Below are positions 346 through 48,977 of a DNA stretch of 64,000 nt, piece after piece (the stretch's first letter is position 1; the number at the start of each line of letters is the position of its first letter). The position numbers were made by a program, and so were the translations under genes. Source of the DNA: Escherichia coli (GTDB taxonomy: Bacteria > Pseudomonadota > Gammaproteobacteria > Enterobacterales > Enterobacteriaceae); the NCBI GenBank assembly GCA_002099625.1, contig GCA_002099625.1_4857.1, one strand, 5' to 3'. The notes under the pieces are model-generated. The model did no database searches. It saw only the letters and a list, made by a program, of their open reading frames with translations, and was not told the origin of the DNA.

Positions 346-825
346 TCATTGCACAAGGCAACTACTTTTGTGCCGTTCGTAGGCATGATTAAAAGACTCT
401 CTGTCTTCGCGATAGCTGCGAATGAGAGACTTAATCTGTCGTGACAAATCACGACTAATGTCCTGAGGGCTACGAGAACCAGGGTCGAGATATATCCCGG
501 AGGGTATATCATGAAGAGTGGGGCGAATAAACTCTTCACAAAGCGGTGCGGCCATCGGGGTGCGCCACCCCTTAGCTTCTGCGTAATTGTTCAACGACTT
601 AGCGTACAGATAAACGTAATAAGCATAAGCGTTCACATCCGCAACAAACATTTTCCCTGCCAGCTTTTTCGCCTCAGGACTGTTCCCACCAGCATAAACT
701 GGTGGGTGTTCTAAAGGACGAAAAGGCCAATCTCCGGTTGAGGAGTAATCTGGGTCTACGTGACGGATGGCTCCAGGGCATCCTGTCAACAATAGCACCA
801 GTATCGCCACCAAAAATAACTTCAT
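346..825 (-). CDS. lipoprotein (candidate o-spanin-like / outer-membrane lipoprotein)
   Basis: N-terminus MKLFLVAILVLLLTGC with lipobox LTGC; GAGGAG RBS 6 nt upstream; start overlaps stop of upstream membrane-protein gene. Confidence 0.55.
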   Translation of the reverse strand: MKLFLVAILVLLLTGCPGAIRHVDPDYSSTGDWPFRPLEHPPVYAGGNSPEAKKLAGKMFVADVNAYAYYVYLYAKSLNNYAEAKGWRTPMAAPLCEEFIRPTLHDIPSGIYLDPGSRSPQDISRDLSRQIKSLIRSYREDRESFNHAYERHKSSCLVQ

Positions 826-834
826 GTATGCTCC

Positions 835-1350
835 TCATGGATTATTAAGCGTACTGATAATCTCCTGTCGGAAATCATTTGCCTCCTGCGACCCTACCGG
901 GCGAGAAGCGGCCTGGTATTTCTTGGCAGGTGGGCTAGACGGATTTAACGGTGCCGGCGGTGTTACCGGCTTGAGTTCTACAGGCGGAACCGCGGCCTCA
1001 GTGCCTGTTCCTGTTGGAGATTTGGTACCATCATATGGCGGTCGAGAACCCAGGCACGTGAAGAGACGATCGTACAACTTATTGTTCTCCACTTCGCCAT
1101 GATCGGACTTCTCTTTTAGCTCCTTATAGGATATCTCCAGATACTGAGTACGCGATTGAACGCTAACCAGTGTGTGGTATTGAACAATGTAGGCGTATGA
1201 GACAAATGCAGAGAACGCGATCAGTGCCACTATCACTAGTGTCACTATTTTCCCGGCTCGTGTTACTTTCTCCCCCTCGCCCGGTTTAAATGCTTCCCAC
1301 AGCATTTGTAAGAATGGAAGCAGTTTGAAAACTGATGCTATCATGCTCAC
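835..1350 (-). CDS. membrane protein with single TM and Pro-rich periplasmic tail (candidate i-spanin-like)
   Basis: Hydrophobic segment IVTLVIVALIAFSAFVSYAYIV, then charged helical region and PPAPLNPSSPP; GAGGTG RBS; translationally coupled to downstream lipoprotein; likely start at second Met (1344). Confidence 0.55.
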   Translation of the reverse strand: MSMIASVFKLLPFLQMLWEAFKPGEGEKVTRAGKIVTLVIVALIAFSAFVSYAYIVQYHTLVSVQSRTQYLEISYKELKEKSDHGEVENNKLYDRLFTCLGSRPPYDGTKSPTGTGTEAAVPPVELKPVTPPAPLNPSSPPAKKYQAASRPVGSQEANDFRQEIISTLNNP

Positions 1351-2758: not shown

Positions 2759-3382
2759 ATGGCACAACTGTTGCCTAACACGCCTCAGGTTAACCTTGAG
2801 GGGTTGTTCAAGGTTAAGGCACCTTATACGTTGCCGGATAAAGTGATTTATCGTGTTGACGCGGTACAGAACTTTCCGAAACTCCAACGTAACAACATTG
2901 ACGTTTATAACAAGTATTATAAACCTGTCGGCCTAACTCGTGACGACTATATCAGCGACGCTAATGTCGAAGCCTCGATTGTAACATTAAAGTCGAGGGA
3001 CGGTCAAGTCTACGAGTTGCCTGATACGTACATTGAGACGTATCCTGGACTGAACGGGTTAAATTATAGACGCAATGTGGTGGTTATTGACCTGGCATTA
3101 ATACCCGAATACGTCGATGTCACACTGCTAACGAACGACCTGAAAAGCATCTTAGAACGCGGTTTAGGAATCGATGCACGTGTGGACATCACATCGATGG
3201 ATTACGAAGGGACGGTGACGGAAGAAGAACACTTGCAAATGGAAGCGGTGCGTAAAGCCAAAATCCGTGAGCAGATTCCTCTGACAGAACAAGTTGCAAC
3301 ACTCACTAAGCAGAATCAAGAACTGCAGGCGTTGAATGATGCGATGTTGAAAATCCTGAAAGATAATGGGTTAACAAATTAA
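2759..3382 (+). CDS. hypothetical protein with C-terminal coiled coil (207 aa)
   Basis: Strong RBS AAGGAGGG before ATG; C-terminus heptad-like (LTEQVATLTKQNQELQALNDAMLKILK); followed by terminator. Confidence 0.7.
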   Translation: MAQLLPNTPQVNLEGLFKVKAPYTLPDKVIYRVDAVQNFPKLQRNNIDVYNKYYKPVGLTRDDYISDANVEASIVTLKSRDGQVYELPDTYIETYPGLNGLNYRRNVVVIDLALIPEYVDVTLLTNDLKSILERGLGIDARVDITSMDYEGTVTEEEHLQMEAVRKAKIREQIPLTEQVATLTKQNQELQALNDAMLKILKDNGLTN

Positions 3383-4634: not shown

Positions 4635-4901
4635 CTAGTTACGGTCGGAATTAAAGACGTGCCAGGTACTACGCCAGCGAAAGAATCGGGTTATGAAACC
4701 ACGTATGTGGTAGCCTGAGAACAACATCCAGATGGTAAGAAAGAGTTGCGCCCATGGAGACGTGAGTTCCATCAGATGCGCGACGATCGCACCGATCACC
4801 AACATTACCGTAGAGAATAACAAACTATACATCATCGGAATGTTGTGGCTATAGCGTTTCTCCATCCAGTAGAGAAAATTTATTAAACGTTTCACGAACA
4901 C
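4635..4901 (-). CDS. small membrane protein (two predicted TM helices)
   Basis: 88 aa with hydrophobic stretches LLFSTVMLVIGAIVAHL and LFLTIWMLFSGY; lies between a terminator and the next gene. Confidence 0.4.
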   Translation of the reverse strand: MFVKRLINFLYWMEKRYSHNIPMMYSLLFSTVMLVIGAIVAHLMELTSPWAQLFLTIWMLFSGYHIRGFITRFFRWRSTWHVFNSDRN

Positions 4902-4910
4902 ACACCCAAG

Positions 4911-4947
4911 AATTAAATAAAAGGTGGTCAGACCCGAAGGTCTGACC
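4911..4947 (-). terminator. rho-independent terminator (approx coords)
   Basis: Stem GGTCAGACC/GGTCTGACC, loop CGAA, followed on minus strand by T-rich TTTTATTTAATT. Confidence 0.5.
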
Positions 4948-4952
4948 GTTAA

Positions 4953-5546
4953 TTACGCTTCGGCCTCAAAGAACGGCTGGTTCGGTACCACTGCATATTC
5001 GAGCACGAAAAGATGTTCTGGGGCATCTTCTGCTCGCCACAGTTTGTGGCACGTTGCCAGTTTTTCCAGGATGGTCAACCAGCTGAGCTGGCAGAAAGCA
5101 CGATCGCCGAAGAACAGTTTCTGCAGTGCAATCGACACATCCATATACGCCTGTTTGAAGTCGAGTTCTTTATCGTAACCCGCCGACTGTCGCCACGTCA
5201 GCACGAAGCCTGCTTCGGTTTCGTTAATTGCTGGACGTAAACCACAAATCCACATCAGCGCCAGATTAACGTTCCAGTCGAATTCGATACCTTCGTCTTC
5301 GTCATCACCAAACGCCGCGTTTAACGCGTCGTAGAAACCGTGGTTCTCTGCGAACCATTCGCCGTACTCAACGTAGACAGGTGCTTCGACAGCTTCCCCA
5401 TCGGCTTCACCGATAGGACGCTCAACGTAGTTCGGATTGGTTTGAACGTGTTCCGCACCCGCGCGAATCAGTTCGTAAACGTCTTTGGCGGTGATTTGTG
5501 CGGCTGTTTTAAGACCTGGATACCAGGGGCGTGTTACGAGTGTCAA
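4953..5546 (-). CDS. hypothetical acidic protein (197 aa)
   Basis: ORF with AAAGGAG RBS 6 nt before a probable TTG start; overlaps stop of upstream gene by 4 nt. Confidence 0.55.
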   Translation of the reverse strand: MTLVTRPWYPGLKTAAQITAKDVYELIRAGAEHVQTNPNYVERPIGEADGEAVEAPVYVEYGEWFAENHGFYDALNAAFGDDEDEGIEFDWNVNLALMWICGLRPAINETEAGFVLTWRQSAGYDKELDFKQAYMDVSIALQKLFFGDRAFCQLSWLTILEKLATCHKLWRAEDAPEHLFVLEYAVVPNQPFFEAEA

Positions 5547-6265
5547 AGCAATGCTCCTTTCATGATAGTGTTATTTGCCAGTAATGTACCGGCCGCAGGT
5601 GATATTTTGGTGTACAGCGTATCCCAGATTTTCTGAAGTTCGGCGACGCGTTGGTCGTGGTCTTCCTTCGCAAAAGCAAGCTGACGTGTTTCAGCTTTCG
5701 GTGGTGTCATTTTCGCACCGTAGAATGCTGCGTCTTTTCGGTAGCTGGCCATCCAGCGTTTCCCGACCGGTGATTTCTTTTTAATCATCGCAACAGCAGC
5801 ACCCTCACCGAAGCGGTAGCCTAAAGCGATTTCGGCTGTGCTCGGCTTGCGTTTGAGTTGTTTTGTCAGATGATCCTCGATGTGTTTCATGTAAACGGCA
5901 GCAAGCTGTACAGCATACTTCGGTTTATTAAGGTCCGCATTCTTTGGGATGTTAAGTTGTTTCCCATACAGACGTATCATGGAGCGTTTAGTGCCTGTCG
6001 TCATTTGGACAACACTACTAGCACTGCTCGATTTATTCTTACCCACGTTTTTATTAAAACGGGATTCACGATAAATGGTGGTCGCGAGCATCCCGGCATG
6101 TACGCCTTGTTTTCGAGATGCGGTGACGATGAGAGGTTTAATCTCATTGAACTGGTCCTGGATAAGGACGAATTCTTTTTGGTGTTTGTTACTGGTGGTC
6201 TGGTAAGAAGCGTTGCTGTTGAACGTAGTCATTGCTACCAGAAGAAATAAAATGGTGCGAAACAT
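5543..6265 (-). CDS. secreted lytic transglycosylase-like protein (SLT-domain candidate)
   Basis: Signal-peptide-like N-terminus MFRTILFLLVAMTTFNSNA; motif IYRESRFN resembling the SLT catalytic E-S-x-F/W-N block; GGAGA RBS. Confidence 0.5.
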   Translation of the reverse strand: MFRTILFLLVAMTTFNSNASYQTTSNKHQKEFVLIQDQFNEIKPLIVTASRKQGVHAGMLATTIYRESRFNKNVGKNKSSSASSVVQMTTGTKRSMIRLYGKQLNIPKNADLNKPKYAVQLAAVYMKHIEDHLTKQLKRKPSTAEIALGYRFGEGAAVAMIKKKSPVGKRWMASYRKDAAFYGAKMTPPKAETRQLAFAKEDHDQRVAELQKIWDTLYTKISPAAGTLLANNTIMKGALL

Positions 6266-8929: not shown

Positions 8930-9133
8930 CTATTCACGACTGTCATAAGCCGGGTCCCTTAAACGCGGGGGCTTGCTCCACAGATTACCGAAGTAAACCC
9001 CTTCTAAGAACACCAAAACAACTAAGCCCCAGAAGGCAGGCGTGGCACGAGACAAGAAAATGCCCATCAGCACTACAGTGTGCATTACCACAACTGCCCA
9101 AAACTTTAAACGACCCGGTTTACGTGTTGCCAT
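8930..9133 (-). CDS. small membrane protein (67 aa from internal ATG)
   Basis: Track ORF 8930..9178 begins GTG; Met16 ATG has AAGGA RBS; two hydrophobic helices (FWAVVVMHTVVLMGIFL, FWGLVVLVFLEGVYF). Confidence 0.45.
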   Translation of the reverse strand: MATRKPGRLKFWAVVVMHTVVLMGIFLSRATPAFWGLVVLVFLEGVYFGNLWSKPPRLRDPAYDSRE

Positions 9134-9220
9134 GGAATGCCCATCCTTTCGTGCGGATAATCCAACCCCAGGCACCACGAATCAACCACAGTGCGATACC
9201 GGTTAGTACGATACCTTCAA

Positions 9221-9412
9221 TCATGTCCGTTCCCCTATATCTCGCCACTCACAACGCGTGTCAAAAAGACGTTCTTTAAGAGCAGAGGCTAAATACACAA
9301 CCGCAGCGATAACCACCACGGTTGCACAAAAGGAGAGGTACAGCACCATCACAACAAACTGAAGGAACTGAAAACCCCACCAAGCCCATAAGCGCCAACC
9401 TTTATGATGCAT
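9221..9412 (-). CDS. small membrane protein (63 aa)
   Basis: ATG start overlapping 3' end of upstream ATPase gene; hydrophobic core FVVMVLYLSFCATVVVIAAVVYLA. Confidence 0.45.
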   Translation of the reverse strand: MHHKGWRLWAWWGFQFLQFVVMVLYLSFCATVVVIAAVVYLASALKERLFDTRCEWRDIGERT

Positions 9413-40789: not shown

Positions 40790-41318
40790 ACTGCACTTGG
40801 TCGATCGCTTCCTGCGCAAAAGCAAGCTGTACAATGTGCACGCAATTGTGGCAGGGGAAGACTTCACTGATGAAATCCAAAGCCTGTTGATTAAATACGG
40901 GCTGAATGTGATGATCCCGGTCTACTGCGTTGAGAAAGGACACGAGTCTGTCGCGGAAATCGAAAAGCGCAACCCTGGCTTTGAGAAGCGACTGCTTGCA
41001 TACCCACGCCACAAAATCGAACTGCTACGTCACTCTATTGATGAAGCCAGTCCTGAAAGTTTAGTGGCATTGGGCTTGTCATTCCCGCGGATGCGTATTC
41101 GTAACTTACGCTCCAATAACCCGGTTGACGCTTATTACACAGAACGTCAAATCTTCGAAGAACACCTGCTCCCGCAGTTGGAAGAAGAAGAGCAACACAA
41201 CATTTCTCTGTTGTGGGCCGGTAACCTCGATCAGGACTTCCAGATGCTGGACTTCGGTTTGTTGTTAGAACTTGGCCTGATTGAGGAGGACGAATGTCTG
41301 TTACTGACAAAAGCTTAA
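40752..41318 (+). CDS. hypothetical protein (188 aa from Met17)
   Basis: ACGGAG RBS before internal ATG; overlaps rSAM2 3' end. Confidence 0.55.
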   Translation: MKSILIHNFTKRKLHLVDRFLRKSKLYNVHAIVAGEDFTDEIQSLLIKYGLNVMIPVYCVEKGHESVAEIEKRNPGFEKRLLAYPRHKIELLRHSIDEASPESLVALGLSFPRMRIRNLRSNNPVDAYYTERQIFEEHLLPQLEEEEQHNISLLWAGNLDQDFQMLDFGLLLELGLIEEDECLLLTKA

Positions 41319-41965
41319 CGAACGAAGAGATCCGCGCCCGTTATTTCCAGCGCGATTTGCCGATTGATCGTCACGGTAATTTCATGGAACGAATCGGTGC
41401 GCAGGATCAGGGTCGTACTGGATTTTGTGCATTACTCCATTACCATCTCATCGAAGGGATGTCTGATAAAGAAGCCCTGGCACGCATGAAGCTGTATGAG
41501 ATGTCGGAGATTGAAGCTAACTTCACATTGAAACGCACGAAAGAGTTTATTGCTAATGTGCTGGAGATTGACCTCGACGAAATTCGCGGGAATCTGAAAT
41601 CTACCGCACGTTACATTTACGAAGACGTGCAGAAGATGCTGTTGGAACTTGACCATCGCTACGAAGATGAGCGCCATGGTTATATCGAGTTTGAAGGTAG
41701 CCACTTTCAAGCCGATGAATCGTCGCGTACCATCCTCGGTCAATATATTCAGGCGGATACCGCACCAGAATACTGGCTCGATACGCTGAATACTAAGCAC
41801 AGTCCGTTTACAGTAGACCAATGTAAAGCGTTGTTGGCCGCTATTGTTGCACGTGACCAAGTGTTGCACTCAGCAATGGCAGATAACAAACGCCAAATCC
41901 GTGAGTTGGCTGAAAAGCGCGATTACACTGGATTAAAAACATTGTCCGAATCTCTCGGCATGTAA
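41294..41965 (+). CDS. hypothetical protein (223 aa), last gene of operon
   Basis: GAGGAGGA RBS; followed by strong terminator. Confidence 0.6.
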   Translation: MSVTDKSLTNEEIRARYFQRDLPIDRHGNFMERIGAQDQGRTGFCALLHYHLIEGMSDKEALARMKLYEMSEIEANFTLKRTKEFIANVLEIDLDEIRGNLKSTARYIYEDVQKMLLELDHRYEDERHGYIEFEGSHFQADESSRTILGQYIQADTAPEYWLDTLNTKHSPFTVDQCKALLAAIVARDQVLHSAMADNKRQIRELAEKRDYTGLKTLSESLGM

Positions 41966-42046: not shown

Positions 42047-42574
42047 TTAAACGAATCCGTCCAGTTCACCGTTGGTGGTGCTCAGGTCAGTTTTAACGAC
42101 TGGCTGCGTTACAGTATAAACTGCAAGGCTGGCAGGCTGGTATTTAATGTGGCCTTCTTTCACCTTAACAGTGATGATTTTCTCACCACTGTCGCCGTCC
42201 TCGCGTGTAATGGTGAGTTCAGACAATGCAAACGCATCTTCCGTTTTACCGGCAGCAATTAGATCTGCGTTGACAAAAGCAAGCACTTCTTCATCGGTAT
42301 CCCATTCTGCCTGGTCAGCGGTCACTGCTTTCGCACCGATAATGTTCAATGAATTGAGGCGGGTATAATGCAGCTCTTTCTCGCCAGTAAAGTTAGCGGA
42401 TTCCGCGGTGGCAGTGATGGTGAGTTTGGAGTTGCGAGTGTCTCCAGAATCTGCTGGTGAATAGTCGGCAACAGCGCCGAATGTAACGTCAGCAGAAGTT
42501 AACGGACTAGACAGTCCGCTGTTTGCAGCATTAAACAGCGCAACGAGTTGGTCTTTTGCAGAGATGACTGCCAT
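42047..42574 (-). CDS. small member of the fibre-like paralog family (175 aa) with C-terminal NGELDGF motif
   Basis: N-terminus MAVISAKDQLVALFNAAN resembles family N-termini; ends TTNGELDGFV; AAGGAA RBS. Confidence 0.65.
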   Translation of the reverse strand: MAVISAKDQLVALFNAANSGLSSPLTSADVTFGAVADYSPADSGDTRNSKLTITATAESANFTGEKELHYTRLNSLNIIGAKAVTADQAEWDTDEEVLAFVNADLIAAGKTEDAFALSELTITREDGDSGEKIITVKVKEGHIKYQPASLAVYTVTQPVVKTDLSTTNGELDGFV

Positions 42575-42697: not shown

Positions 42698-43189
42698 ATG
42701 AAACGTCTATTTATCGTATTCGCGATTATAAACCTGTTGGCCGGTTGTGTTCAGTCGCCAAGCAACATAGGACAATTTAGCGCCACACCAGTAAAGAATC
42801 ACGACTTGGTGATTTATACATGCACAGGGACGCAGGAGAAGTTTATAGACTACCGTCCGGTTCTGGACAATCTACAGATGATGCCGCGGTCAGTAACAGT
42901 AATGGATGTGGGTGCAAACTGGGTAGCAACGTGGGACGGTGGCAAACTTGAGTCACCGATGATGTTTAAAGATGTGGTTGGCAAAATCGACGGGAATGTT
43001 AACACCACCACGGGCGAGCGTTATTACCGTATTAATAAAACAGCAAACGATAGCCCAACTTATTCTTTTTCGGATGTGAACCCACATACCGGGGAAGGTA
43101 AAGGGATGACATTCTTTCGCTGCAGCGCCGGCTTTATCGACGAAGTTCCTACGCCGATTATGATTGTTCCGTTAGAAGAAAATAAATAA
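42698..43189 (+). CDS. lipoprotein (163 aa)
   Basis: MKRLFIVFAIINLLAGC lipobox LAGC; isolated plus-strand gene with own terminator. Confidence 0.65.
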   Translation: MKRLFIVFAIINLLAGCVQSPSNIGQFSATPVKNHDLVIYTCTGTQEKFIDYRPVLDNLQMMPRSVTVMDVGANWVATWDGGKLESPMMFKDVVGKIDGNVNTTTGERYYRINKTANDSPTYSFSDVNPHTGEGKGMTFFRCSAGFIDEVPTPIMIVPLEENK

Positions 43190-43234
43190 TGCTTACCCAC
43201 TCCCGTAAGGGGAGTGGGTATGGGCTTTATTTAC
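43186..43234 (+). terminator. rho-independent terminator (approx coords)
   Basis: Stem ACCCACTCCC/GGGAGTGGGT, loop GTAA, followed by GGGCTTTATTT. Confidence 0.6.
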
Positions 43235-43239
43235 CCTCT

Positions 43240-43285
43240 AAAACGCTCTGTAACGCTCTCTAAACGCATTAAACGTCTTGGATGA
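43240..43285. repeat. four tandem ~10-bp direct repeats, core AACGC (approx coords)
   Basis: CTAAAACGCTCTG / TAACGCTCTC / TAAACGCATT / AAACGTCTTG in convergent intergenic region. Confidence 0.3.
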
Positions 43286-43314
43286 TAAATGATATTACTT
43301 TTGATTAAAGTGGC

Positions 43315-43830
43315 TTAGATTTTAACTAGCTTGCTCCAATCGATGGGTTGTTGTTTAACCACTTTAACGGTACCACGTGTCGGTGACCAGAAAGTGATAT
43401 CAGGCTGGTTGCGTACGTCAACATGCAGCCAGGTAATATCGCACTCGATAAAGTGAATAAACGGAAACTCGTTAGGGTTCGCGGCAATATAGTCGTGTAC
43501 TTTCTGCAACGGAGTATCAAGCATTGTTGCATCAAACGCATTGCCGAATTTATGCATACTGCCTGATTCCGCGTACAGTTTGTTTGCACGAGTTTGCCAA
43601 TCGCCACCCTTTGGTTTCTCTTGATTAATAAAGAACTGCAGGGTACGCAGACTACGCTGTTGCTGGGAACTGGTTAAAATCACCATCCGCCCAAAACGAT
43701 TACGAATCTGTTGGAGCGAGATTAGCAGTAACGGATTAAGGAAACGAATAGCACCTTCACCGTATTTCGCGATGTACTCCTGCGGCATCAACTCTTTTAA
43801 CGCGAAGTTGGCAGGATTCGGATGAAACAT
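43315..43830 (-). CDS. LAS-type zinc peptidase (peptidase M15-like; candidate endolysin L-alanyl-D-glutamate peptidase)
   Basis: SMHKFGNAFDA matches S-x-H-x-x-G-x-A-x-D zinc-binding block; downstream LHVDVR (H-x-D); AAGGAG RBS. Confidence 0.6.
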   Translation of the reverse strand: MFHPNPANFALKELMPQEYIAKYGEGAIRFLNPLLLISLQQIRNRFGRMVILTSSQQQRSLRTLQFFINQEKPKGGDWQTRANKLYAESGSMHKFGNAFDATMLDTPLQKVHDYIAANPNEFPFIHFIECDITWLHVDVRNQPDITFWSPTRGTVKVVKQQPIDWSKLVKI

Positions 43831-43839
43831 TTTCTCTCC

Positions 43840-44481
43840 TTAAGGGGTAGTCAGGAACGCACGTTTGATATTCAAATACTGCACGTTTACCGGTTGCCCA
43901 TTAGTAATGTCAACACGTTCGTGTTCAGGAATCGCTAACGTACGCGACGTTCTAAAGAACAGGTAGTTGCGATTATAGGACAACGTCTTTTCTACCGGCC
44001 GGCTATAAACCACCTTAGAGTTATCGTCTACATAGGACGGCCAACCAAACTCGTGAACGGCATGGTAGAAGGACTTACGAATAAAGGTATCAACGCCTAA
44101 TGCCTCCATGATACGTAAGAACATCAGGTCAGCGAATGTTTTGTCACATGCACGAGATAGATTACCTTCGACAGTGTCAGGGTAAAAGCCTACCGATGAA
44201 CGTTTCTGGTAAAACAAATCATGCACACAAGCGGCAGCGGCCCAAGGCCCATCCGGATGCAGGATAGGACGTAACGCTTCTGGAATGCTTGCCAGGTCCG
44301 TCACAAATCCTCTCGGTACCGTTACCCATAACGGGGTATCCGGATGCACACCTGCTAATGCTACCATCGCATCCATTCCGGTCTGTTCACGATAGAGGCT
44401 GCGCAACGTAAACTCGAAATGGAAATCATCCGTGAGGATAAACCACGGCTTCTCTAACAACTTATACTCAAGTGCTTCCAT
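43840..44481 (-). CDS. hypothetical protein, DUF1353-like (213 aa)
   Basis: Motif PRGFVTDLASIP...HDLFY reminiscent of DUF1353 phage proteins; GTGAGG RBS. Confidence 0.5.
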   Translation of the reverse strand: MEALEYKLLEKPWFILTDDFHFEFTLRSLYREQTGMDAMVALAGVHPDTPLWVTVPRGFVTDLASIPEALRPILHPDGPWAAAACVHDLFYQKRSSVGFYPDTVEGNLSRACDKTFADLMFLRIMEALGVDTFIRKSFYHAVHEFGWPSYVDDNSKVVYSRPVEKTLSYNRNYLFFRTSRTLAIPEHERVDITNGQPVNVQYLNIKRAFLTTP

Positions 44482-44488
44482 ACTGACC

Positions 44489-44581
44489 TCACGTCATATA
44501 ACGCACGAGCATCGTGAGGACCATTAATCCCAGTAAAATGGGCATTAAGCCTTTCGGCCAGTCGTCGTTGTCGTATTGCAT
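44489..44581 (-). CDS. possible small TM peptide (30 aa; approx coords)
   Basis: GGAGGG RBS 7 nt before ATG; MQYDNDDWPKGLMPILLGLMVLTMLVRYMT has one hydrophobic helix; below ORF-track size cutoff. Confidence 0.25.
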   Translation of the reverse strand: MQYDNDDWPKGLMPILLGLMVLTMLVRYMT

Positions 44582-44697
44582 GGCTTTACCCTCCGACAGA
44601 AGATCGCGCGTAATAGTTTGAAGAACCCAGAATCGTAATACGTTTCCGGAACGGTTTGTACTTCGGGGAACTTAGGCGGAGTTGGACGGTGGGTCAT
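44545..44697 (-). CDS. possible small protein (50 aa; approx coords)
   Basis: AAGGAG RBS 8 nt before ATG; overlaps neighbouring small ORFs out of frame. Confidence 0.2.
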   Translation of the reverse strand: MTHRPTPPKFPEVQTVPETYYDSGFFKLLRAIFCRRVKPCNTTTTTGRKA

Positions 44698-44773
44698 TAC
44701 GTTTTCTCCTTGCGGCAAAAACAAGGGCGCGCCAGATAGCTTTCATTAAGGCAGCAAACCAATTCTGTTTCAT
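44672..44773 (-). CDS. possible small basic/amphipathic peptide (33 aa; approx coords)
   Basis: ATG overlaps the lysozyme-gene stop (ATGA); MKQNWFAALMKAIWRALVFAARRKR. Confidence 0.2.
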   Translation of the reverse strand: MKQNWFAALMKAIWRALVFAARRKRNDPPSNSA

Positions 44774-45387
44774 TTGCACACCCCCAACTTAGCCACGTAG
44801 TCTGGCATTTCATGATAGACGCGGCCATACCAGCCGTAAGTAAACTCTTCGTTATCCTCACGCCCTTCACTGATTTCCGTGTAATACGCAACCTGATGAC
44901 AGGTTAAAGCGAACATCAGTCGATTCAGGCCCTCTTCCCCACGGGCTTTGATGAAGCCTTCTAACGCTGTTAACGTACGTGGCCCGATACCACCATCGGC
45001 ATCGATATCATCGTATAGTTTACCCTGACGGTTTAATACGTTCAGAATACGTTGCAGGGACTTGATACAGTTACCGCGTCCTGCGTTAATGCCGAAATCA
45101 AACATTCGGTCAGCTAGCAGGACATTCATTTTCATAATCTGGTCTAAACGCATTCGCTGCCACCAGAGCTTGTTGTAAATGTCTAACGCGATTTCTAAGC
45201 TCAGGTCACGCATATCCCCTTTATAGCCATATTCGCGCGCAGTGAGTTCGGTGACACCGCGGTTCGTTGCTTTGCCCAAATCTTTCGGGTTATTAACGTA
45301 ACCGGCTTCGATGTTTACTTTGGCACGAATAATGCCCTCTTTACTCCAACGATCGACCACGATAACCTCCTGAGTTGATAGGGTCAT
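44770..45387 (-). CDS. GH108-like lysozyme with C-terminal PG_binding_3-like domain (206 aa from Met13; candidate endolysin)
   Basis: EAGYVNNPKDLGKATNRGVTELT resembles the GH108 E-G-G-Y-V-N-D-P-x-D-x-G-G-x-T block; DADGGIGPRTLTAL resembles the D-G-x-x-G-P-x-T PG-binding motif; track start lies inside terminator hairpin, Met13 follows it. Confidence 0.65.
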   Translation of the reverse strand: MTLSTQEVIVVDRWSKEGIIRAKVNIEAGYVNNPKDLGKATNRGVTELTAREYGYKGDMRDLSLEIALDIYNKLWWQRMRLDQIMKMNVLLADRMFDFGINAGRGNCIKSLQRILNVLNRQGKLYDDIDADGGIGPRTLTALEGFIKARGEEGLNRLMFALTCHQVAYYTEISEGREDNEEFTYGWYGRVYHEMPDYVAKLGVCK

Positions 45388-45389
45388 AA

Positions 45390-45420
45390 AAAGAAAGCCT
45401 CTTCCCCACAGGGAAGAGGG
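45390..45420 (-). terminator. rho-independent terminator (approx coords)
   Basis: Stem CCTCTTCCC/GGGAAGAGG, loop CACA, T-rich tail on minus strand. Confidence 0.5.
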
Positions 45421-45465
45421 CATGGGTTATCTTCAGGCTTTAAACCCGTCAAGTTCCTCGTTAAA

Positions 45466-47643
45466 TTACGATAACGGTATCGTTGGCCGCACCCACGGTT
45501 TAGGGGCAGATTTGGTATACGGATTACATTCCATCATTTTACCGAGATACGCATCGTAATACACGAAGCGATCGACGTAGAACTTCTCCACCGGTGCACT
45601 ACTGGTAGCCGATTTCACCCGGTTGCGTTCCACAGCGAGGCTAATCGCCCCGGTAGGTGCGGGTTTTAGCGTGAACATTACCGCGCGGTTGTAACGCCAA
45701 GTGTCGTGCACAATATCAAACTCCGATACACAGTGTGCCATGATACCAAACAATGTGGTGGCTGGTAAGTTGGCTACAGCATCGCCGTATGGTGTTCCCA
45801 CCAAACCGCCGGGTATGTTTTGCTTTTTGAACAGCGTACCTGAAATAATCGTACCTAAGAACTCCACAACTACAGGTTTGGTTGGGTCGGTGACTTTATC
45901 TATCCCATCCGCACTGGCCAATCGGTTGGCATCTAAATCTGCGAGGTAGTCGAGGAACTCTTGGTACTCGTCGGTGACATTCGGTTTCACCGTTCCGACG
46001 GATACCCAGTTGACGATACTTTTATTCCCACCGACGGCTTCGCCTGCCATCCCAGGGCGAGTCCATGACATCCCGTCTTCACGACCGTAGACATAGACTG
46101 GCGAGCCGGTAGCCGGGGTGTTCCATTGCTCGAACGCTGTATATCGTCCCGGCTGGCCCCAATCCCCACCCGGACCGCCATAGTAGCGACTCTGGTAGCC
46201 GGTAAATTGTGCGACGACTAACTGGGTAGCACCGCCTTTGTCACGGGACCCAGCTAAGCCGTTACGGTTATTGGTGCCGCTGGGCACCGCCGCGCCTGGC
46301 CCGAGAGGCGCACCACCAGCTCCACCGATCTTGGTGGTGCTAAACGCATAGTAGTCGCCCCCACCCCCACCACCGGCGATGGTGCCGTAGTTTTCGATGG
46401 TGACTTTGCCGCGGAAGGTATCGGTAATGTGGATTGCGTCAGCTCCGTCTGCTGATGTGTTCGCAGGCAGAGAATAGACCATACCCGAACCACCACGACC
46501 AAGAATGGTTCCCCGGTTAACGAAGTTCCAAACCACCTCGCCAATTTGCGGCAATTCGTCGATAACGAACGTCGGTTTCAGGTTGCTGTCGCGATAAACG
46601 AAAGCCCCCGCATCTACGGTCACGTTAACAAACAAACGCCCGCACGCCGCATGGTTGGTCAACGTTGTGGCCCAGTAGCTGTCCGAAACTTGCGACGTGG
46701 TTGTGTAATTCAGGTTAAGGGTTTGCTCGTTATCTTGATAGCGTGCCACATTCAACGTGGCACTGCCCATGACTTTGTACGAACCCTCCACGGGTGCCAA
46801 TTGCACTTGTCTTGGCCACTCGCCTGTCAAGTTCTCTACAGGAGCAATTTCGTTTACATCAAAAACACTCCGAATGCCGAGTGTCTCGATGGCCAGAGCA
46901 TCGTGCAGGCTACCGGTGAAATCATCCGGGACGTATGTGGTTTTGCCTGCATATGTCTCGAGTTTGTTACGTGAAAAGAACACATACTTCGTCCCAAACA
47001 TCCCGCTCCCCGGTCTAGCGGTCAAAGCCACGACGCTGTTATACGCAGAGGTTTGGCCTATATCCTCCGGGGACATCGGGGCGCTGACATCGACTTTATC
47101 AAGATCCACGATCCGTTTGGCTGCATTAGAGTAGAAGTTAATCCACTGCTGTTTATTCGCAGCCTTTAGCGTGAGAATGATATTGGTAACAGTGTAGACG
47201 GTGTTGATATCCACGTCGCCGTTTATCACATCTAGCGTTTGGCTGCCGTACCAGACAAGACTTGTCTGTTTCGCCTGGAACGTGATGCGCGCAGCATTGT
47301 TTGTCCAAGTGATAGGCAGGTCTTCAAAGTCGTCGGTTAAAAAGGTAATCCCCAGTAAAGTGTCTAAATGCGGCAACAGTTCGTGAATGGATGCACAAGT
47401 GGGAATGGCATCCAACTTAACCTTAGCGAAATAATCAGCAATATTTTGCTTCGTGACTTGGGCCGTAATTTGACCGTAACTTGAATACCCCGGACCCCCT
47501 GTCAGTGTGACGTCTAGGGTTTTTTCGTCATGATGCTCCACGGACACCAGGCGAACGTTAGCGGGGTCTACTGCTTTGGCGACCGCGTTTTTACGGTTGA
47601 GCGACCGAATCACGGTCGCCACTAAATCAGGAGTGTAGGACAT
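45466..47643 (-). CDS. fibre-like paralog family member, long form with Gly-rich region (725 aa)
   Basis: AAGGTG RBS; family-type N-terminus; Gly-rich segment GGGGGGDYY...GGAGGAPLGPGAAVPSG. Confidence 0.75.
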   Translation of the reverse strand: MSYTPDLVATVIRSLNRKNAVAKAVDPANVRLVSVEHHDEKTLDVTLTGGPGYSSYGQITAQVTKQNIADYFAKVKLDAIPTCASIHELLPHLDTLLGITFLTDDFEDLPITWTNNAARITFQAKQTSLVWYGSQTLDVINGDVDINTVYTVTNIILTLKAANKQQWINFYSNAAKRIVDLDKVDVSAPMSPEDIGQTSAYNSVVALTARPGSGMFGTKYVFFSRNKLETYAGKTTYVPDDFTGSLHDALAIETLGIRSVFDVNEIAPVENLTGEWPRQVQLAPVEGSYKVMGSATLNVARYQDNEQTLNLNYTTTSQVSDSYWATTLTNHAACGRLFVNVTVDAGAFVYRDSNLKPTFVIDELPQIGEVVWNFVNRGTILGRGGSGMVYSLPANTSADGADAIHITDTFRGKVTIENYGTIAGGGGGGDYYAFSTTKIGGAGGAPLGPGAAVPSGTNNRNGLAGSRDKGGATQLVVAQFTGYQSRYYGGPGGDWGQPGRYTAFEQWNTPATGSPVYVYGREDGMSWTRPGMAGEAVGGNKSIVNWVSVGTVKPNVTDEYQEFLDYLADLDANRLASADGIDKVTDPTKPVVVEFLGTIISGTLFKKQNIPGGLVGTPYGDAVANLPATTLFGIMAHCVSEFDIVHDTWRYNRAVMFTLKPAPTGAISLAVERNRVKSATSSAPVEKFYVDRFVYYDAYLGKMMECNPYTKSAPKPWVRPTIPLS

Positions 47644-47657
47644 GGTGACACCTTAGT

Positions 47658-48977
47658 CTATAGCGGTGGATACCAAGGGACCGGGGCGGTTTTGCTATAT
47701 GGACTGTAGACCATATAGCCGCCTTTGCTTGGGTCGTAATAGATGAAATAGTTACAGTAATTCGAGTAAATACTCGTCATTTGTTTGGATTGGTATCCGT
47801 TACGGTATAGTCCCTGGTAAGTAATAGCTGATGTCGTGGTGGTGTAAGCAGTGTGGTACAGTACCCGACGCCGGTTAGCAATACTTTCTTGGAACATTTC
47901 TTCGGTCGGAAACGCGTGTTGCATCAGCCGTCGAATACTCCCGGTACAGTATCGAGTGCCATACGGGGAACCCGTTAAATCATCCGCTGTTTCAGGCGCT
48001 TCCGCCCGAGTCAACACGTACTCGTTTTGATACAACGTGACGCTCATCGAATTTGAGCTGGTTTCCCGGAACCTCATGTAACGCGCATAACGTTCGACGT
48101 CCTCTTCCTGCGCCAAATAGGCCACGTTATTTTTCGGACCAAAGTGCAAGAAGAACGGACGGCGGAGATTACCCATATCCTCAGGTGGCGTCAACTTCAC
48201 GCAGTAATTGTACTCCCCACGCATATCAGGGTCTAAGCCTGGGTTGTTATTGCGTGTAGCGACATACCCATAGAGGTCATACGGGTTATCAGTAGCAGCA
48301 TTACCGATAGTGAACGGGATGCCCGACCATGCCGACAGCGCCGCGATGAACTGGGTCATGTACGAGTTACTGTTTAGTCGCAGCGGGGTACCCATCGGGA
48401 TATTGATTATCTGTTGGGTGTACATGCTCCAGTCGAGTCGATAGACCGTGCTGTAAACATCCATGGGTTCCCAAGCTCCGGTTTCGGTGGTGTGGTACAA
48501 GTCGGCAAAGCTGGGCTCTTCACGAATAAAGCTAATTGGAATGTGACCCGTGAATGCGGGGTTATCCGATTTAATCGCCACCGTCCGATCGCCCGTTGCC
48601 ACAGTGATCATTGCAAACTGGCTGTCAGGATACGTTAAATCGTCAGCAGTAAGCACCAGCCCACAAGCTGCGGAAATCCGATCGATGATGTCGCGGTAGG
48701 ACGTCGCCCGATAAGGTACTTTAACCGGTACGCTGACGCCTTTAAAATACTGCGAAAGGTTTAAGCGGTCGTAGTAGATGTCCATCTTACCGCTGTAACC
48801 ACCACCCTGTAATCCGTTTACCACTATACGGCTGTTGCGGCCATCGCGCAAGGCATTGGTTAAAGGACCTTGTAATAACGCCACGTTGGTTGCGTTGAGT
48901 GGTTTCTTGAGCTGCGGGTTATCACGATTAATCTGATCCCAAACCAGCTGCATGACAGGTTTGTTATAGTTGATCAT
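47658..48977 (-). CDS. fibre-like paralog family member (439 aa)
   Basis: N-terminus MINYNKPVMQLVWDQINRDNPQL...GRNS...YYDRLNLSQYF carries the family NRDNP / YYDRLNL motifs. Confidence 0.75.
   Translation of the reverse strand: MINYNKPVMQLVWDQINRDNPQLKKPLNATNVALLQGPLTNALRDGRNSRIVVNGLQGGGYSGKMDIYYDRLNLSQYFKGVSVPVKVPYRATSYRDIIDRISAACGLVLTADDLTYPDSQFAMITVATGDRTVAIKSDNPAFTGHIPISFIREEPSFADLYHTTETGAWEPMDVYSTVYRLDWSMYTQQIINIPMGTPLRLNSNSYMTQFIAALSAWSGIPFTIGNAATDNPYDLYGYVATRNNNPGLDPDMRGEYNYCVKLTPPEDMGNLRRPFFLHFGPKNNVAYLAQEEDVERYARYMRFRETSSNSMSVTLYQNEYVLTRAEAPETADDLTGSPYGTRYCTGSIRRLMQHAFPTEEMFQESIANRRRVLYHTAYTTTTSAITYQGLYRNGYQSKQMTSIYSNYCNYFIYYDPSKGGYMVYSPYSKTAPVPWYPPL

What the first reader, a model, noticed from the sequence alone, without database searches (positions are those of the whole stretch)
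43315..45387. Lysis cassette with two different peptidoglycan hydrolases and overlapping mini-ORFs
A GH108-like lysozyme with PG-binding motif (44770..45387) and an M15/LAS-type zinc peptidase (43315..43830) flank a DUF1353-like gene. Between them are three overlapping small ORFs with strong RBSs, one a 30-aa single-TM peptide, that are too small for the ORF track and could be holin, antiholin or spanin-like components in overlapping frames. Two enzymatic specificities (glycosidase plus peptidase) in one cassette is notable.
Basis: partly seen in the sequence, partly recalled or inferred. Interest (0 to 1): 0.45.

Follow-up and report, generated by a model that had tools for sequence, protein, structure and literature searches.

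The report
Phage lysis operon with a phospholipase
A giant Salmonella phage carries one compact operon encoding a cell-wall lysozyme, three tiny membrane-active peptides, a probable membrane-lipid-cutting enzyme (mislabelled in databases as a tail chaperone) and a second wall-cutting peptidase, which suggests that these phages break open their host partly by digesting membrane lipids, something not yet shown by experiment.

Summary
The window is an SPN3US-like jumbo phage (Seoulvirus, 99% identical to published genomes). On the minus strand, between two terminator-like hairpins, lie six tightly packed cistrons.

- A TtsA-type GH108 plus PG_binding_3 muramidase.
- Three mini-ORFs: A (33 aa), B (50 aa) and C (30 aa).
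- A DUF1353 protein.
- A divergent LAS/M15 zinc peptidase.

All three mini-ORFs are under purifying selection in their own frames (pN/pS 0.1-0.35). A is a cationic amphipathic helix, C is a single transmembrane helix, and B carries a conserved basic amphipathic motif. None matches a known holin or spanin family.

The best reading is a late envelope-degradation operon with a muramidase, a peptidase, a phospholipase and small membrane peptides.

Caveats:
- Nothing here is tested biochemically.
- The peptidase homologue was seen at trace level in virions.
- The same window holds a spanin-like gene pair, holin-like ORFs and an exported SLT transglycosylase.
- The phospholipase is therefore more likely an accessory than a spanin replacement.

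The parts
45398..45419 (-). Terminator-like hairpin plus T-tract, directly downstream of the preceding virion gene (45466..47643) and just upstream of the cassette. It marks the 5' boundary of the unit.
   Evidence: 9-bp stem with 6 GC pairs, followed by CTTTCTTTTT. A hairpin plus T-tract sits at the same position in SPN3US (loop differs) and in SPAsTU (stem sequence differs but still pairs). The conserved TTTTTATGACCC that follows may be a start site for late transcription (inference).
44770..45360 (-). TtsA-type GH108 plus PG_binding_3 N-acetylmuramidase (the endolysin, homologue of SPN3US gp156). It is soluble, with no signal or SAR segment. Databases annotate the start at 45387, but GTG 45360 is more likely.
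   Evidence: Pfam. PHROG 315 endolysin, 4.6e-39. Best PDB matches are 6v3z Sen1395 (1.8e-41) and 6v40 TtsA (5.6e-39). E18 of the EAGY/EGGY motif is invariant. Start codon analysis. Maximum KD19 is 0.68.
44672..44773 (-). Mini-ORF A, 33 aa: a cationic (+6) amphipathic helix followed by RRKR. It is translationally coupled to the endolysin by an ATGA overlap.
   Evidence: PHROG 25143 (unknown function), 3.4e-12. Conserved in Seoulvirus, Erskinevirus and the uncultured lineage L020-L023. pN/pS is 0.13-0.38. Hydrophobic moment is 0.45-0.61 and KD17 about 1.4, below the transmembrane threshold.
44545..44697 (-). Mini-ORF B, 50 aa: a variable N-terminus followed by the conserved motif GFFK(L/M)LRAIFxRRV. 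The last 13 residues are a non-conserved extension that overlaps C.
   Evidence: AAGGAG ribosome-binding site. The motif is conserved in 5 lineages with pN/pS 0.09-0.14. In SPAsTU and pEa_SNUABM_29, B ends in an ATGA overlap with the start of C. No slippery heptamer is present for a B-to-C frameshift.
44489..44581 (-). Mini-ORF C, 30 aa: an acidic N-terminus (DNDDW) followed by one transmembrane helix, with a likely N-out/C-in topology.
   Evidence: GGAGG ribosome-binding site. KD17 is 2.0. pN/pS is 0.21-0.31. Annotated as hypothetical in SPLA5c, phage 1252 and SaP7. Analogous transmembrane peptides of 37-52 aa sit in the same slot in ChrisDB, L018 and Wellington.
43840..44481 (-). DUF1353 protein, 213 aa (homologue of SPN3US gp157): a probable phospholipase A2 of the TtaP / group XIII-XIV type, with clade-specific N- and C-terminal extensions. 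It is soluble. Databases label it 'tail assembly chaperone'.
43315..43830 (-). Divergent LAS/M15-type zinc peptidase, 171 aa (homologue of SPN3US gp158). It is soluble and is a probable peptidoglycan peptidase.
43194..43220 (.). Strong hairpin between the convergent ends of the cassette and the lipoprotein gene. It marks the 3' boundary of the unit.
   Evidence: 11-bp stem with 7 GC pairs, followed by a T-rich tail on the minus strand.
42698..43189 (+). Outer-membrane-type lipoprotein, 163 aa (homologue of SPN3US gp159), convergent on the cassette. It is syntenic with the cassette, so association is possible, but its function is unknown.
   Evidence: LLAGC lipobox. PHROG 9559, unknown function. 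A homologous lipoprotein lies beside the cassette in almost every lineage that keeps the GH108 gene next to DUF1353 (in L018 it is the second gene downstream and on the same strand). It is absent from the CR5/Phobos lineage.

Best explanation
This is a late envelope-degradation (lysis) operon of an SPN3US-like jumbo phage. Six cistrons lie between two terminators.

Proposed sequence of events:
1. Three soluble enzymes without export signals accumulate in the cytoplasm. They are a TtsA-type muramidase, a DUF1353 phospholipase A2-type enzyme and a LAS zinc peptidase.
2. The inner membrane is permeabilised. This could be done by the co-encoded mini-proteins (C is a transmembrane peptide, A a cationic amphipathic helix, B an amphipathic basic peptide) or by a holin encoded elsewhere.
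3. The muramidase cuts glycan strands and the peptidase cuts peptide stems or cross-links.
4. The phospholipase hydrolyses phosphatidylethanolamine and phosphatidylglycerol in the periplasm-facing leaflets. The resulting lysophospholipids and fatty acids destabilise the outer and inner membranes and help the final rupture.

Shown here:
- gene content, order, coupling and boundaries;
- coding status of the mini-ORFs;
- family and fold assignments;
- conservation of catalytic residues;
- repeated linkage of DUF1353 to lysis genes in other phages.

Inferred:
- late timing;
- enzymatic activities;
- latency of the phospholipase in the cytoplasm, for example through calcium dependence as in secreted PLA2s;
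- which protein makes the membrane lesion;
- the phospholipase's contribution to lysis.
For: Operon anatomy:
- Overlaps of 4, 26 and 37 nt, then gaps of 7 and 9 nt.
- A Shine-Dalgarno sequence precedes every cistron.
- Hairpins flank the unit.

Muramidase:
- Pfam and PHROG matches.
- Close to the solved TtsA and Sen1395 structures.
- GH108 enzymes are annotated as endolysins in many of the 513 phage records that carry one.

Phospholipase:
- All 36 homologues match DUF1353.
- H87, D88 and D118 are invariant.
- hhalign E = 0.0022, with the catalytic residues aligned.
- The family member TtaP has PLA2 activity that is abolished by D85A. It degrades PE and PG in E. coli lysates and caused no detectable envelope defect when expressed by S. 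Typhi.
- TtaP lies in the same 3.3-kb islet as TtsA, whose action needs an added outer-membrane perturbant.

Linkage of DUF1353 to lysis genes elsewhere:
- Fusobacterium phage FNU4: autolysin ... DUF1353, then holin.
- Fusobacterium phage FNU1: DUF1353, one gene, then amidase.
- Caulobacter phage DMCA: M15, one gene, then DUF1353.
- Pseudomonas phage Cygsa01: DUF1353 followed by endolysin.
- By my tally of the family counts, at least 18 of 39 non-redundant IMG/VR loci have an endolysin or holin within three genes on the same strand.

Peptidase: LAS fold and metal ligands.

Mini-ORFs:
- Purifying selection in their own frames.
- At least one small membrane-active peptide lies between the endolysin and DUF1353 in all six lineages that have that junction.

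Export: none of the three enzymes has a signal or transmembrane segment.
Against: - There is no experimental evidence for any activity, for expression timing or for a lysis phenotype.
- A GH108-DUF1353 pairing is not general. None of 80 bacterial GH108 loci had DUF1353 within 5 kb.
- Many DUF1353 loci lie next to tail or fibre genes instead, for example Francisella phage KIRK and several IMG/VR loci with proteins of 800-1,300 aa beside them.
- SPN3US gp158 was detected in virions but not in tailless particles. It was later judged possibly non-specific.
- The window also holds a spanin-like pair of a transmembrane protein and a lipoprotein (346-1350), two small 2-TM ORFs (8930-9412), and an exported SLT transglycosylase followed two genes downstream by a small membrane protein (4635-6265). 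Holin, spanin and even endolysin functions may therefore reside elsewhere.
- The M15 gene is absent from the cassette in four of the eight lineages compared.
Confidence: 0.55

Rival explanations
1. Only the GH108 muramidase is a lysis gene. The DUF1353 protein and the LAS peptidase would be virion-associated or virion-assembly factors. On this view DUF1353 assists tail-fibre assembly, as its database label says, or is an entry enzyme. The peptidase would be a low-copy tail lysin that opens peptidoglycan during infection.
For: - PHROG 1158 is labelled 'tail assembly chaperone'.
- The cassette is embedded among virion-protein paralogues (DUF7941 and a GP38-like fibre adhesin domain at 45466-47643) and lies near a DUF4376 gene.
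- DUF4376 and DUF7941 were the most frequent Pfam neighbours of DUF1353 in IMG/VR loci.
- In Francisella phage KIRK, DUF1353 sits next to fibre genes.
- gp158 peptides were found in virions but not in tailless particles.
Against: - gp156 and gp157 are not mentioned among virion proteins in the two SPN3US proteome papers, whose main text was searched.
- gp158 was later regarded as probably non-specific.
- A chaperone would not need an invariant His-Asp...Asp catalytic set shared with PLA2s.
- I found no experiment behind the 'tail assembly' label.
- The tight translational arrangement with the endolysin and membrane peptides argues for a shared function.
Confidence: 0.15
2. The operon is a lysis operon, but the phospholipase does not act on the outer membrane at the end of lysis. 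Instead it could, together with the mini-peptides, be the trigger that permeabilises the inner membrane in a holin-independent release. Alternatively it could clear membrane debris and vesicles so that progeny are not trapped.
For: - No recognised holin lies in the cassette.
- In lineage L020-L023 the cassette has only the amphipathic peptide A and no transmembrane peptide.
- A spanin-like pair exists elsewhere and could deal with the outer membrane.
- Lysophospholipids are general membrane destabilisers (established knowledge, also discussed in PMC11525133).
Against: - A cytoplasmic phospholipase active on the inner leaflet would give poorly timed lysis.
- TtaP caused no detectable envelope defect when expressed by S. 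Typhi.
- There is no direct evidence either way.
Confidence: 0.12
3. The DUF1353 enzyme serves a function unrelated to lysis, such as remodelling host membranes during infection. In nucleus-forming jumbo phages this could mean handling the early membrane vesicle. It could also act against superinfecting phages or neighbouring cells, and its position beside the endolysin would then be incidental.
For: - DUF1353 also occurs as a stand-alone, signal-peptide-bearing protein in ordinary bacterial chromosomal contexts.
- In the CR5/Phobos and Vibrio pVa-21 lineages the gene is not next to the GH108 endolysin.
- No biological role has been found for TtaP.
Against: - Operon structure with the endolysin.
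- Recurrent linkage to endolysins and holins in unrelated phages.
- In CR5/Phobos it is still coupled, by a 29-nt overlap, to the LAS peptidase.
- It is not reported as a virion or early protein in the papers I could read.
Confidence: 0.08

Closest known systems
Typhoid-toxin islet pair TtsA (muramidase) and TtaP (DUF1353 phospholipase A2) of Salmonella Typhi
   Same: - The same two protein families lie within a few kilobases of each other.
- The phage muramidase's best solved relatives are Sen1395 and TtsA (1.8e-41 and 5.6e-39).
- The phage DUF1353 protein keeps residues equivalent to TtaP's H70, D71 and D85.
- TtsA needs an extra outer-membrane perturbant, such as a cationic peptide or bile salt, to release periplasmic contents. 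The phage supplies a cationic peptide and a lipase in the same operon.
   Different: - In S. Typhi the pair is chromosomal, PhoPQ-regulated and non-lytic, and it serves toxin secretion.
- There, ttaP is co-transcribed with cdtB and not with ttsA.
- TtaP is 125 aa, whereas the phage protein is 213 aa with extra N- and C-terminal regions.
- The islet has no mini-ORFs and no LAS peptidase.
- The biological role of TtaP is itself unknown.
Classical holin-endolysin-spanin lysis cassettes of phages of Gram-negative hosts (lambda S-R-Rz/Rz1)
   Same: - A soluble endolysin without an export signal is clustered with small membrane proteins.
- The genes overlap and are translationally coupled.
- The logic of one component per envelope layer applies.
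   Different: - No member of a recognised holin or spanin family is present.
- The small proteins are only 30-50 aa.
- Two extra enzymes are present, a phospholipase and a peptidase.
- A spanin-like pair lies about 43 kb away (346-1350), not in the cassette.
Disruptin gp28 of phage phiKT, a cationic antimicrobial-peptide-like outer-membrane disruptor (bioRxiv 10.1101/515445)
   Same: - Mini-ORF A is a short cationic (+5 to +7) amphipathic helix encoded in a lysis cassette.
- gp28 is a 56-aa cationic amphipathic peptide that replaces spanins.
   Different: - A is 33 aa.
- No functional data exist for A.
- This phage may still have spanins.
Mycobacteriophage LysA plus LysB (own knowledge: LysB is a lipolytic esterase that detaches the mycolate outer membrane during lysis)
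   Same: A lysis cassette that pairs a peptidoglycan hydrolase with a lipid-cleaving enzyme aimed at the outer membrane layer.
   Different: - The fold differs: LysB is a serine esterase of the cutinase type.
- The substrate differs: the mycolyl-arabinogalactan linkage.
- The host envelope differs.
- There is no homology to DUF1353.
Secreted bacterial and fungal phospholipases A2, group XIII/XIV (Streptomyces violaceoruber 1LWB, Tuber borchii 4AUP)
   Same: - A helical core with the HD...D catalytic arrangement.
- hhalign aligns the catalytic residues and the C-terminal AVxxFG motif.
   Different: - None of the four disulphide cysteines is present.
- There is no signal peptide.
- The phage protein has large extra domains.
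- Foldseek does not detect the similarity.
- Pfam places the two in different families.

Membership tests
GH108 / PG_binding_3 muramidases (TtsA type) | Both Pfam domains score above the curated thresholds | tested here: met
   Glyco_hydro_108 scores 65.2 bits against a cutoff of 21.2. PG_binding_3 scores 68.6 bits against 24.6.
GH108 / PG_binding_3 muramidases (TtsA type) | The catalytic glutamate in the N-terminal E-(G/A)-G-Y motif is conserved | tested here: met
   E18 (IEAGYV) is invariant in an alignment that includes TtsA and Sen1395. That this Glu is the catalytic residue is my own recollection and was not tested here.
GH108 / PG_binding_3 muramidases (TtsA type) | Muramidase activity on peptidoglycan | not testable with these tools
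   Needs a zymogram or muropeptide analysis.
DUF1353 / TtaP-type phospholipase A2 | Pfam PF07087 match above the curated threshold | tested here: met
   63 bits against a cutoff of 22.5. All 36 aligned homologues match.
DUF1353 / TtaP-type phospholipase A2 | Catalytic His-Asp pair plus the distal Asp (H70, D71 and D85 in TtaP) | tested here: met
   H87, D88 and D118 are invariant in 36 sequences. Short-loop members have TtaP's 15-residue His-to-Asp spacing. The residues align with the H64, D65 and D85 columns of the Streptomyces PLA2, which are invariant in that alignment.
DUF1353 / TtaP-type phospholipase A2 | Fold similarity to group XIII/XIV secreted PLA2 | tested here: inconclusive
DUF1353 / TtaP-type phospholipase A2 | sn-2 phospholipid hydrolysis | not testable with these tools
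   Needs an enzyme assay, such as the fluorogenic PLA2 assay and lipid HPLC used for TtaP.
LAS / M15 zinc peptidases | Zinc ligands H-x(6)-D and a distal H in an HxD/HxH motif | tested here: met
   S91-M-H93-KFGNAF-D100 and W134-L-H136-V-D138. H93, D100, H136 and D138 are invariant in 18 sequences.
LAS / M15 zinc peptidases | Pfam M15 family match above the curated threshold | tested here: not met
   Peptidase_M15_3 scores 16.8 bits against a cutoff of 23.2, E = 0.0076. This is a divergent subfamily, and only 31 relatives were found.
LAS / M15 zinc peptidases | LAS fold | tested here: met
Holins | A small protein with at least one transmembrane helix, encoded beside the endolysin | tested here: met
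   This is met by C only (KD17 2.0, 30 aa). A and B fall below the transmembrane threshold.
Holins | Membership of a described holin family | tested here: not met
   There are no Pfam, PHROG or NCBIfam holin matches for A, B or C, or for the equivalent peptides in relatives.
Holins | Timed formation of a membrane lesion that releases the endolysin | not testable with these tools
   Needs expression and depolarisation assays.
Spanins (two-component or unimolecular) | An outer-membrane lipoprotein signal (lipobox), and/or an inner-membrane anchor with a periplasm-spanning domain | tested here: not met
   A, B and C have no lipobox. C has only about 11 residues outside its helix. A separate pair at 835-1350 and 346-825 does have this topology.

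The most novel reading that the evidence does not exclude
DUF1353 enzymes would be a third kind of phage device for the last, membrane-breaking step of Gram-negative lysis, after spanins and the disruptin peptide. On this reading a phage-encoded phospholipase A2 stays latent in the cytoplasm and is released with the endolysin. It then dissolves the periplasm-facing membrane leaflets, helped or targeted by the co-encoded 30-50-aa membrane peptides. The TtsA-TtaP pair of the typhoid-toxin islet would be a domesticated copy of this phage module. That would also give TtaP, whose role is currently unknown, its function: perturbing the outer membrane to allow toxin release.
Probability: 0.25. Interest if true: 0.8.

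Novelty: new variant of a known kind. Interest (0 to 1): 0.52.

Why it matters
**Gap in the field.** How jumbo phages lyse their hosts is essentially undescribed.
- A 2026 review of jumbo-phage biology contains the word "lysis" once and never "holin" or "spanin".
- Genome papers on this clade list only muralytic enzymes.

**What the operon offers.** It gives a concrete, testable gene set in a phage that already has an amber-mutant genetic system (PMC5105663).

**If the DUF1353 protein is an active phospholipase used in lysis:**
- It would add an enzymatic, lipid-hydrolysing mechanism to the known ways phages breach the Gram-negative envelope.
- It would correct a widespread database label ("tail assembly chaperone").
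- It would offer a rationale for the unexplained fifth gene of the typhoid-toxin islet.

**Possible applications.** Small disulphide-free PLA2s and endolysin-plus-permeabiliser combinations are of applied interest for killing Gram-negative bacteria from outside.

Tried and rejected
- **PDB sequence searches.** Profile searches with the DUF1353 and M15 alignments gave only chance-level hits.
- **Foldseek.** The DUF1353 model against the PDB gave nothing significant. The AlphaFold-database library was not available.
- **GH108-DUF1353 pairing in bacterial genomes.** None of the 80 best GH108 loci, mostly Sphingomonadales with some Enterobacteriaceae, had DUF1353 within 5 kb. A positive control worked. 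The pairing is therefore not a general property of GH108 genes. The typhoid-toxin islet itself was not among the loci returned.
- **Programmed -1 frameshift joining B and C.** This was suggested by the single fused-looking peptides in L018 and ChrisDB. I rejected it for this window because there is no slippery heptamer and C has its own strong ribosome-binding site.
- **Mini-ORFs as spanins.** Rejected because they have no lipobox and no periplasmic domain.
- **Known-function families for the mini-peptides.** None in Pfam, PHROGs or NCBIfam.
- **SPN3US infection time-course proteome.** The paper (PMC6384053) is not held. The supplements of PMC5105663 gave no hits for gp155-159.
- **Per-locus counts of lysis neighbours.** Batch scans return only family counts, so 18 of 39 is a lower bound. 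The roughly 10% background expectation is my own rough estimate, not a measured control.
- **Contexts of two distant DUF1353 homologues.** These were uninformative: one prophage end with unannotated small genes and one housekeeping locus.


Full report
**Identity of the window.** Bases 43200-45500 are 99.0% identical to Salmonella phages SPFM4, SPFM11 and others, and 95.9% identical to SPN3US. All are about 240-kb jumbo phages of the genus Seoulvirus. The flagged genes correspond to SPN3US_0156, 0157 and 0158, that is gp156-158. Database annotation of this stretch is inconsistent.
- gp156 is labelled "endolysin" or "hypothetical".
- gp157 is labelled "tail assembly chaperone", "phage tail assembly-like" or "DUF1353".
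- gp158 is labelled "hypothetical" or a second "endolysin".
- Different records call none, one or two of the small ORFs.

**Anatomy.** Everything is on the minus strand.
- A terminator-like hairpin with a T-tract (45419-45398) follows the upstream virion gene. A hairpin plus T-tract sits at the same position in SPN3US and SPAsTU, with differing loop or stem sequence.
- Six cistrons follow: the muramidase, A, B, C, DUF1353 and the peptidase.
- The junctions are a 4-nt ATGA overlap, a 26-nt overlap, a 37-nt overlap, a 7-nt gap and a 9-nt gap.
- Each start is preceded by a Shine-Dalgarno sequence (AGGAGG, GGGGG, AAGGAG, GGAGG, GAGG, AAGGAG).
- A strong hairpin (43220-43194) closes the unit, facing the end of a convergent lipoprotein gene.
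- The databases start the muramidase at ATG 45387, which abuts the terminator's T-tract and has no ribosome-binding site. The GTG at 45360 has AGGAGG 5 nt upstream and matches the N-termini of all relatives. In pEa_SNUABM_29 the ATG frame stops after four codons. I therefore place the start at 45360.

**The two peptidoglycan hydrolases.**
- The muramidase has Glyco_hydro_108 and PG_binding_3 well above Pfam thresholds. Its best solved relatives are Sen1395 (6v3z, 1.8e-41) and TtsA (6v40, 5.6e-39).
- The glutamate of its EAGY motif is invariant. It has no hydrophobic N-terminus, so it needs a membrane lesion to reach the wall.
- GH108 enzymes occur in 513 phage records and are often annotated as the endolysin.
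- The 171-aa protein scores below threshold on Pfam M15_3. It nevertheless has the SxHxxGxAxD and WLHVD motifs, with H93, D100, H136 and D138 invariant in 18 homologues.

**The mini-ORFs are real genes.**
- In SPAsTU and pEa_SNUABM_29 (78% identical in the neighbouring protein), all three are present. B ends in an ATGA overlap with the start of C.
- phiEaH2 and Asesino-like phages keep A and a short B. An uncultured lineage (L020-L023) keeps only A.
- ChrisDB and L018 have one peptide of 44-52 aa. It combines a B-like N-terminus with a C-like acidic segment and transmembrane helix.
- Wellington-like phages have a 37-aa transmembrane peptide.
- Across these comparisons, substitutions concentrate at third codon positions. 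pN/pS is 0.13-0.38 for A, 0.09-0.14 for B (excluding the near-identical SPAsTU/pEa_SNUABM_29 pair, which differs at one synonymous site) and 0.21-0.31 for C. The same DNA read in the other two frames shows pN about equal to or greater than pS.
- A is cationic (+5 to +7) with a high hydrophobic moment (0.45-0.61) and sub-threshold hydrophobicity.
- C has a clear transmembrane segment (KD17 2.0) with an acidic N-terminus.
- B has a conserved basic amphipathic motif. Its last 13 residues in this window are a non-conserved extension.
- None matches a family of known function. There is no slippery site for a B-C frameshift.
- Every lineage that has the endolysin-DUF1353 junction encodes at least one such peptide there.

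**The DUF1353 protein is the key re-interpretation.**
- A 2024 paper showed that TtaP, the DUF1353 protein of the typhoid-toxin islet, is a phospholipase A2. Its activity is abolished by D85A and it degrades PE and PG in E. coli lysates. Its catalytic residues are H70, D71 and D85, and it is distantly related to group XIV secreted PLA2s. It caused no detectable envelope defect when expressed by S. Typhi (PMC11525133).
- The phage protein matches DUF1353 at 63 bits. In a 36-sequence alignment H87, D88 and D118 are invariant.
- I rebuilt an alignment of four solved PLA2s from PDB search output. A profile-profile comparison aligned H87 and D88 with the H64 and D65 columns, D118 with the D85 column, and the C-terminal AVxxFG motif, at E = 0.0022.
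- Against this, Foldseek found nothing and the hhalign probability is low.
- TtaP's islet also encodes TtsA, the close homologue of this phage's muramidase. TtsA alone cannot release periplasmic toxin unless an outer-membrane perturbant, such as a cationic peptide or bile salts, is added.
- The phage operon contains exactly such a set: a TtsA-like muramidase, a cationic amphipathic peptide and a phospholipase.

**Is DUF1353 a lysis gene elsewhere?** The evidence is mixed.
- In favour:
  - It lies in lysis cassettes of unrelated phages: Fusobacterium FNU4 and FNU1, Caulobacter DMCA and Pseudomonas Cygsa01.
  - Gartly et al. report lysozyme-DUF1353 fusions.
  - I grouped 39 non-redundant IMG/VR loci. 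In these, same-strand neighbours within three genes matched GH108 (7), holin_4_1 (4), M15_4 (3), Phage_lysozyme (2), holin_3_1 (1) and several endolysin PHROGs.
  - By my tally at least 18 of the 39 loci have a lysis neighbour. That is above my rough 10% expectation, but it is not universal.
- Against:
  - In Francisella phage KIRK and several metagenomic loci it sits beside fibre or very large tail genes. This probably explains the "tail assembly" label.
  - None of 80 bacterial GH108 loci has DUF1353 nearby.
  - In CR5/Phobos-type phages DUF1353 is coupled to the LAS peptidase without an adjacent GH108 gene.

**Other caveats from the same window.**
- A pair of a transmembrane protein (835-1350) and a lipoprotein (346-825) has the topology of a separated two-component spanin.
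- Two 2-TM ORFs (8930-9412) look like class II holins.
- An SLT transglycosylase with a signal/SAR-like N-terminus (5543-6265) is followed two genes downstream on the same strand by a small membrane protein (4635-4901).
- None of these has an assigned function apart from the SLT transglycosylase, which RefSeq names.
- The phage is therefore not demonstrably holin-less or spanin-less. The phospholipase is more safely described as an accessory envelope-degrading enzyme than as a spanin replacement.
- SPN3US gp158 peptides were found in virions but not in tailless particles. They were later considered possibly non-specific.

**Verdict.** The best explanation is a late lysis operon that combines glycosidase, peptidase and phospholipase activities with small membrane-active peptides (confidence 0.55). 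It is a new variant of a known kind of system. Its interest lies in the phospholipase, the parallel with the typhoid-toxin islet, and the near absence of knowledge about jumbo-phage lysis.

Noticed in passing
window 346-1350 (minus strand): A 171-aa protein (835-1350) has an N-terminal cytoplasmic stretch, one transmembrane helix, a short helical region and a proline-rich tail. It is followed after 9 nt by a 159-aa lipoprotein (346-825) with an LLLTGC lipobox and three cysteines. This is the topology of a separated i-spanin/o-spanin pair. Both are 'hypothetical' in RefSeq SPN3US and fall in PHROGs of unknown function.
   Followed up: partly
window 8930-9178 and 9221-9412 (minus strand): Two adjacent small ORFs of 82 and 63 aa each have two predicted transmembrane helices. 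Their size and topology resemble class II holins. Their PHROGs have no known function.
   Followed up: partly
window 4635-6265 (minus strand): A 240-aa SLT transglycosylase (Pfam 27.7 bits) has a signal-peptide or SAR-like N-terminus (MFRTILFLLVAMTTFNSNA). A 197-aa protein and an 88-aa membrane protein follow on the same strand. This could be a second, exported muralytic module of the SAR-endolysin/pinholin style.
   Followed up: partly
window 42698-43189 (plus strand): An outer-membrane-type lipoprotein (LLAGC lipobox, conserved GQFSTVPV...VIYTCTG motif) converges on the cassette. It is syntenic in almost every lineage that keeps the GH108 gene beside DUF1353 and is absent from the CR5/Phobos lineage. 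It could be an immunity or inhibitor protein or a lysis partner, but its function is unknown.
   Followed up: partly
window 45360-45419: The database start of the endolysin (ATG 45387) abuts a terminator T-tract. The conserved sequence TTTTTATGACCC, followed by AGGAGG and GTG, suggests a transcription start right after the terminator and translation from GTG 45360.
   Followed up: partly
L018 3855-4013; L004 (ChrisDB) 2867-3001: Related phages have one peptide of 44-52 aa (PHROG 26367). It joins a B-like N-terminus (PVPPVFPEVQ) to a C-like acidic segment and transmembrane helix. The B and C genes of this window therefore look like a split, or the others a fusion. The mini-protein set is mosaic across genera.
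   Followed up: yes
GenBank records LR535906, LR535911, LR535917 and others (SPFM8, SPFM12, SPFM20): In several SPFM genomes this region aligns in 37-38 pieces at about 99% identity. Their predicted gp157 and gp158 proteins are scrambled (12-66% coverage). This looks like many small indel errors in those assemblies, not biological variation.
   Followed up: no
window 45466-47643, 47658-48977 and 42047-42574: Paralogues of the DUF7941 'virion structural protein' family flank the cassette. One (725 aa) also carries a glycine-rich domain like the T4 Gp38 fibre adhesin. A DUF4376 gene (41294-41965) and two radical-SAM genes lie just beyond. DUF4376 and DUF7941 were also the commonest Pfam neighbours of DUF1353 in other viral contigs.
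   Followed up: no
alignment A1; L186 3178-3783: Distant DUF1353 homologues from bacteria carry N-terminal signal-peptide-like segments. At least one sits in an ordinary chromosomal context. This points to an extracytoplasmic site of action for the family outside phages.
   Followed up: partly
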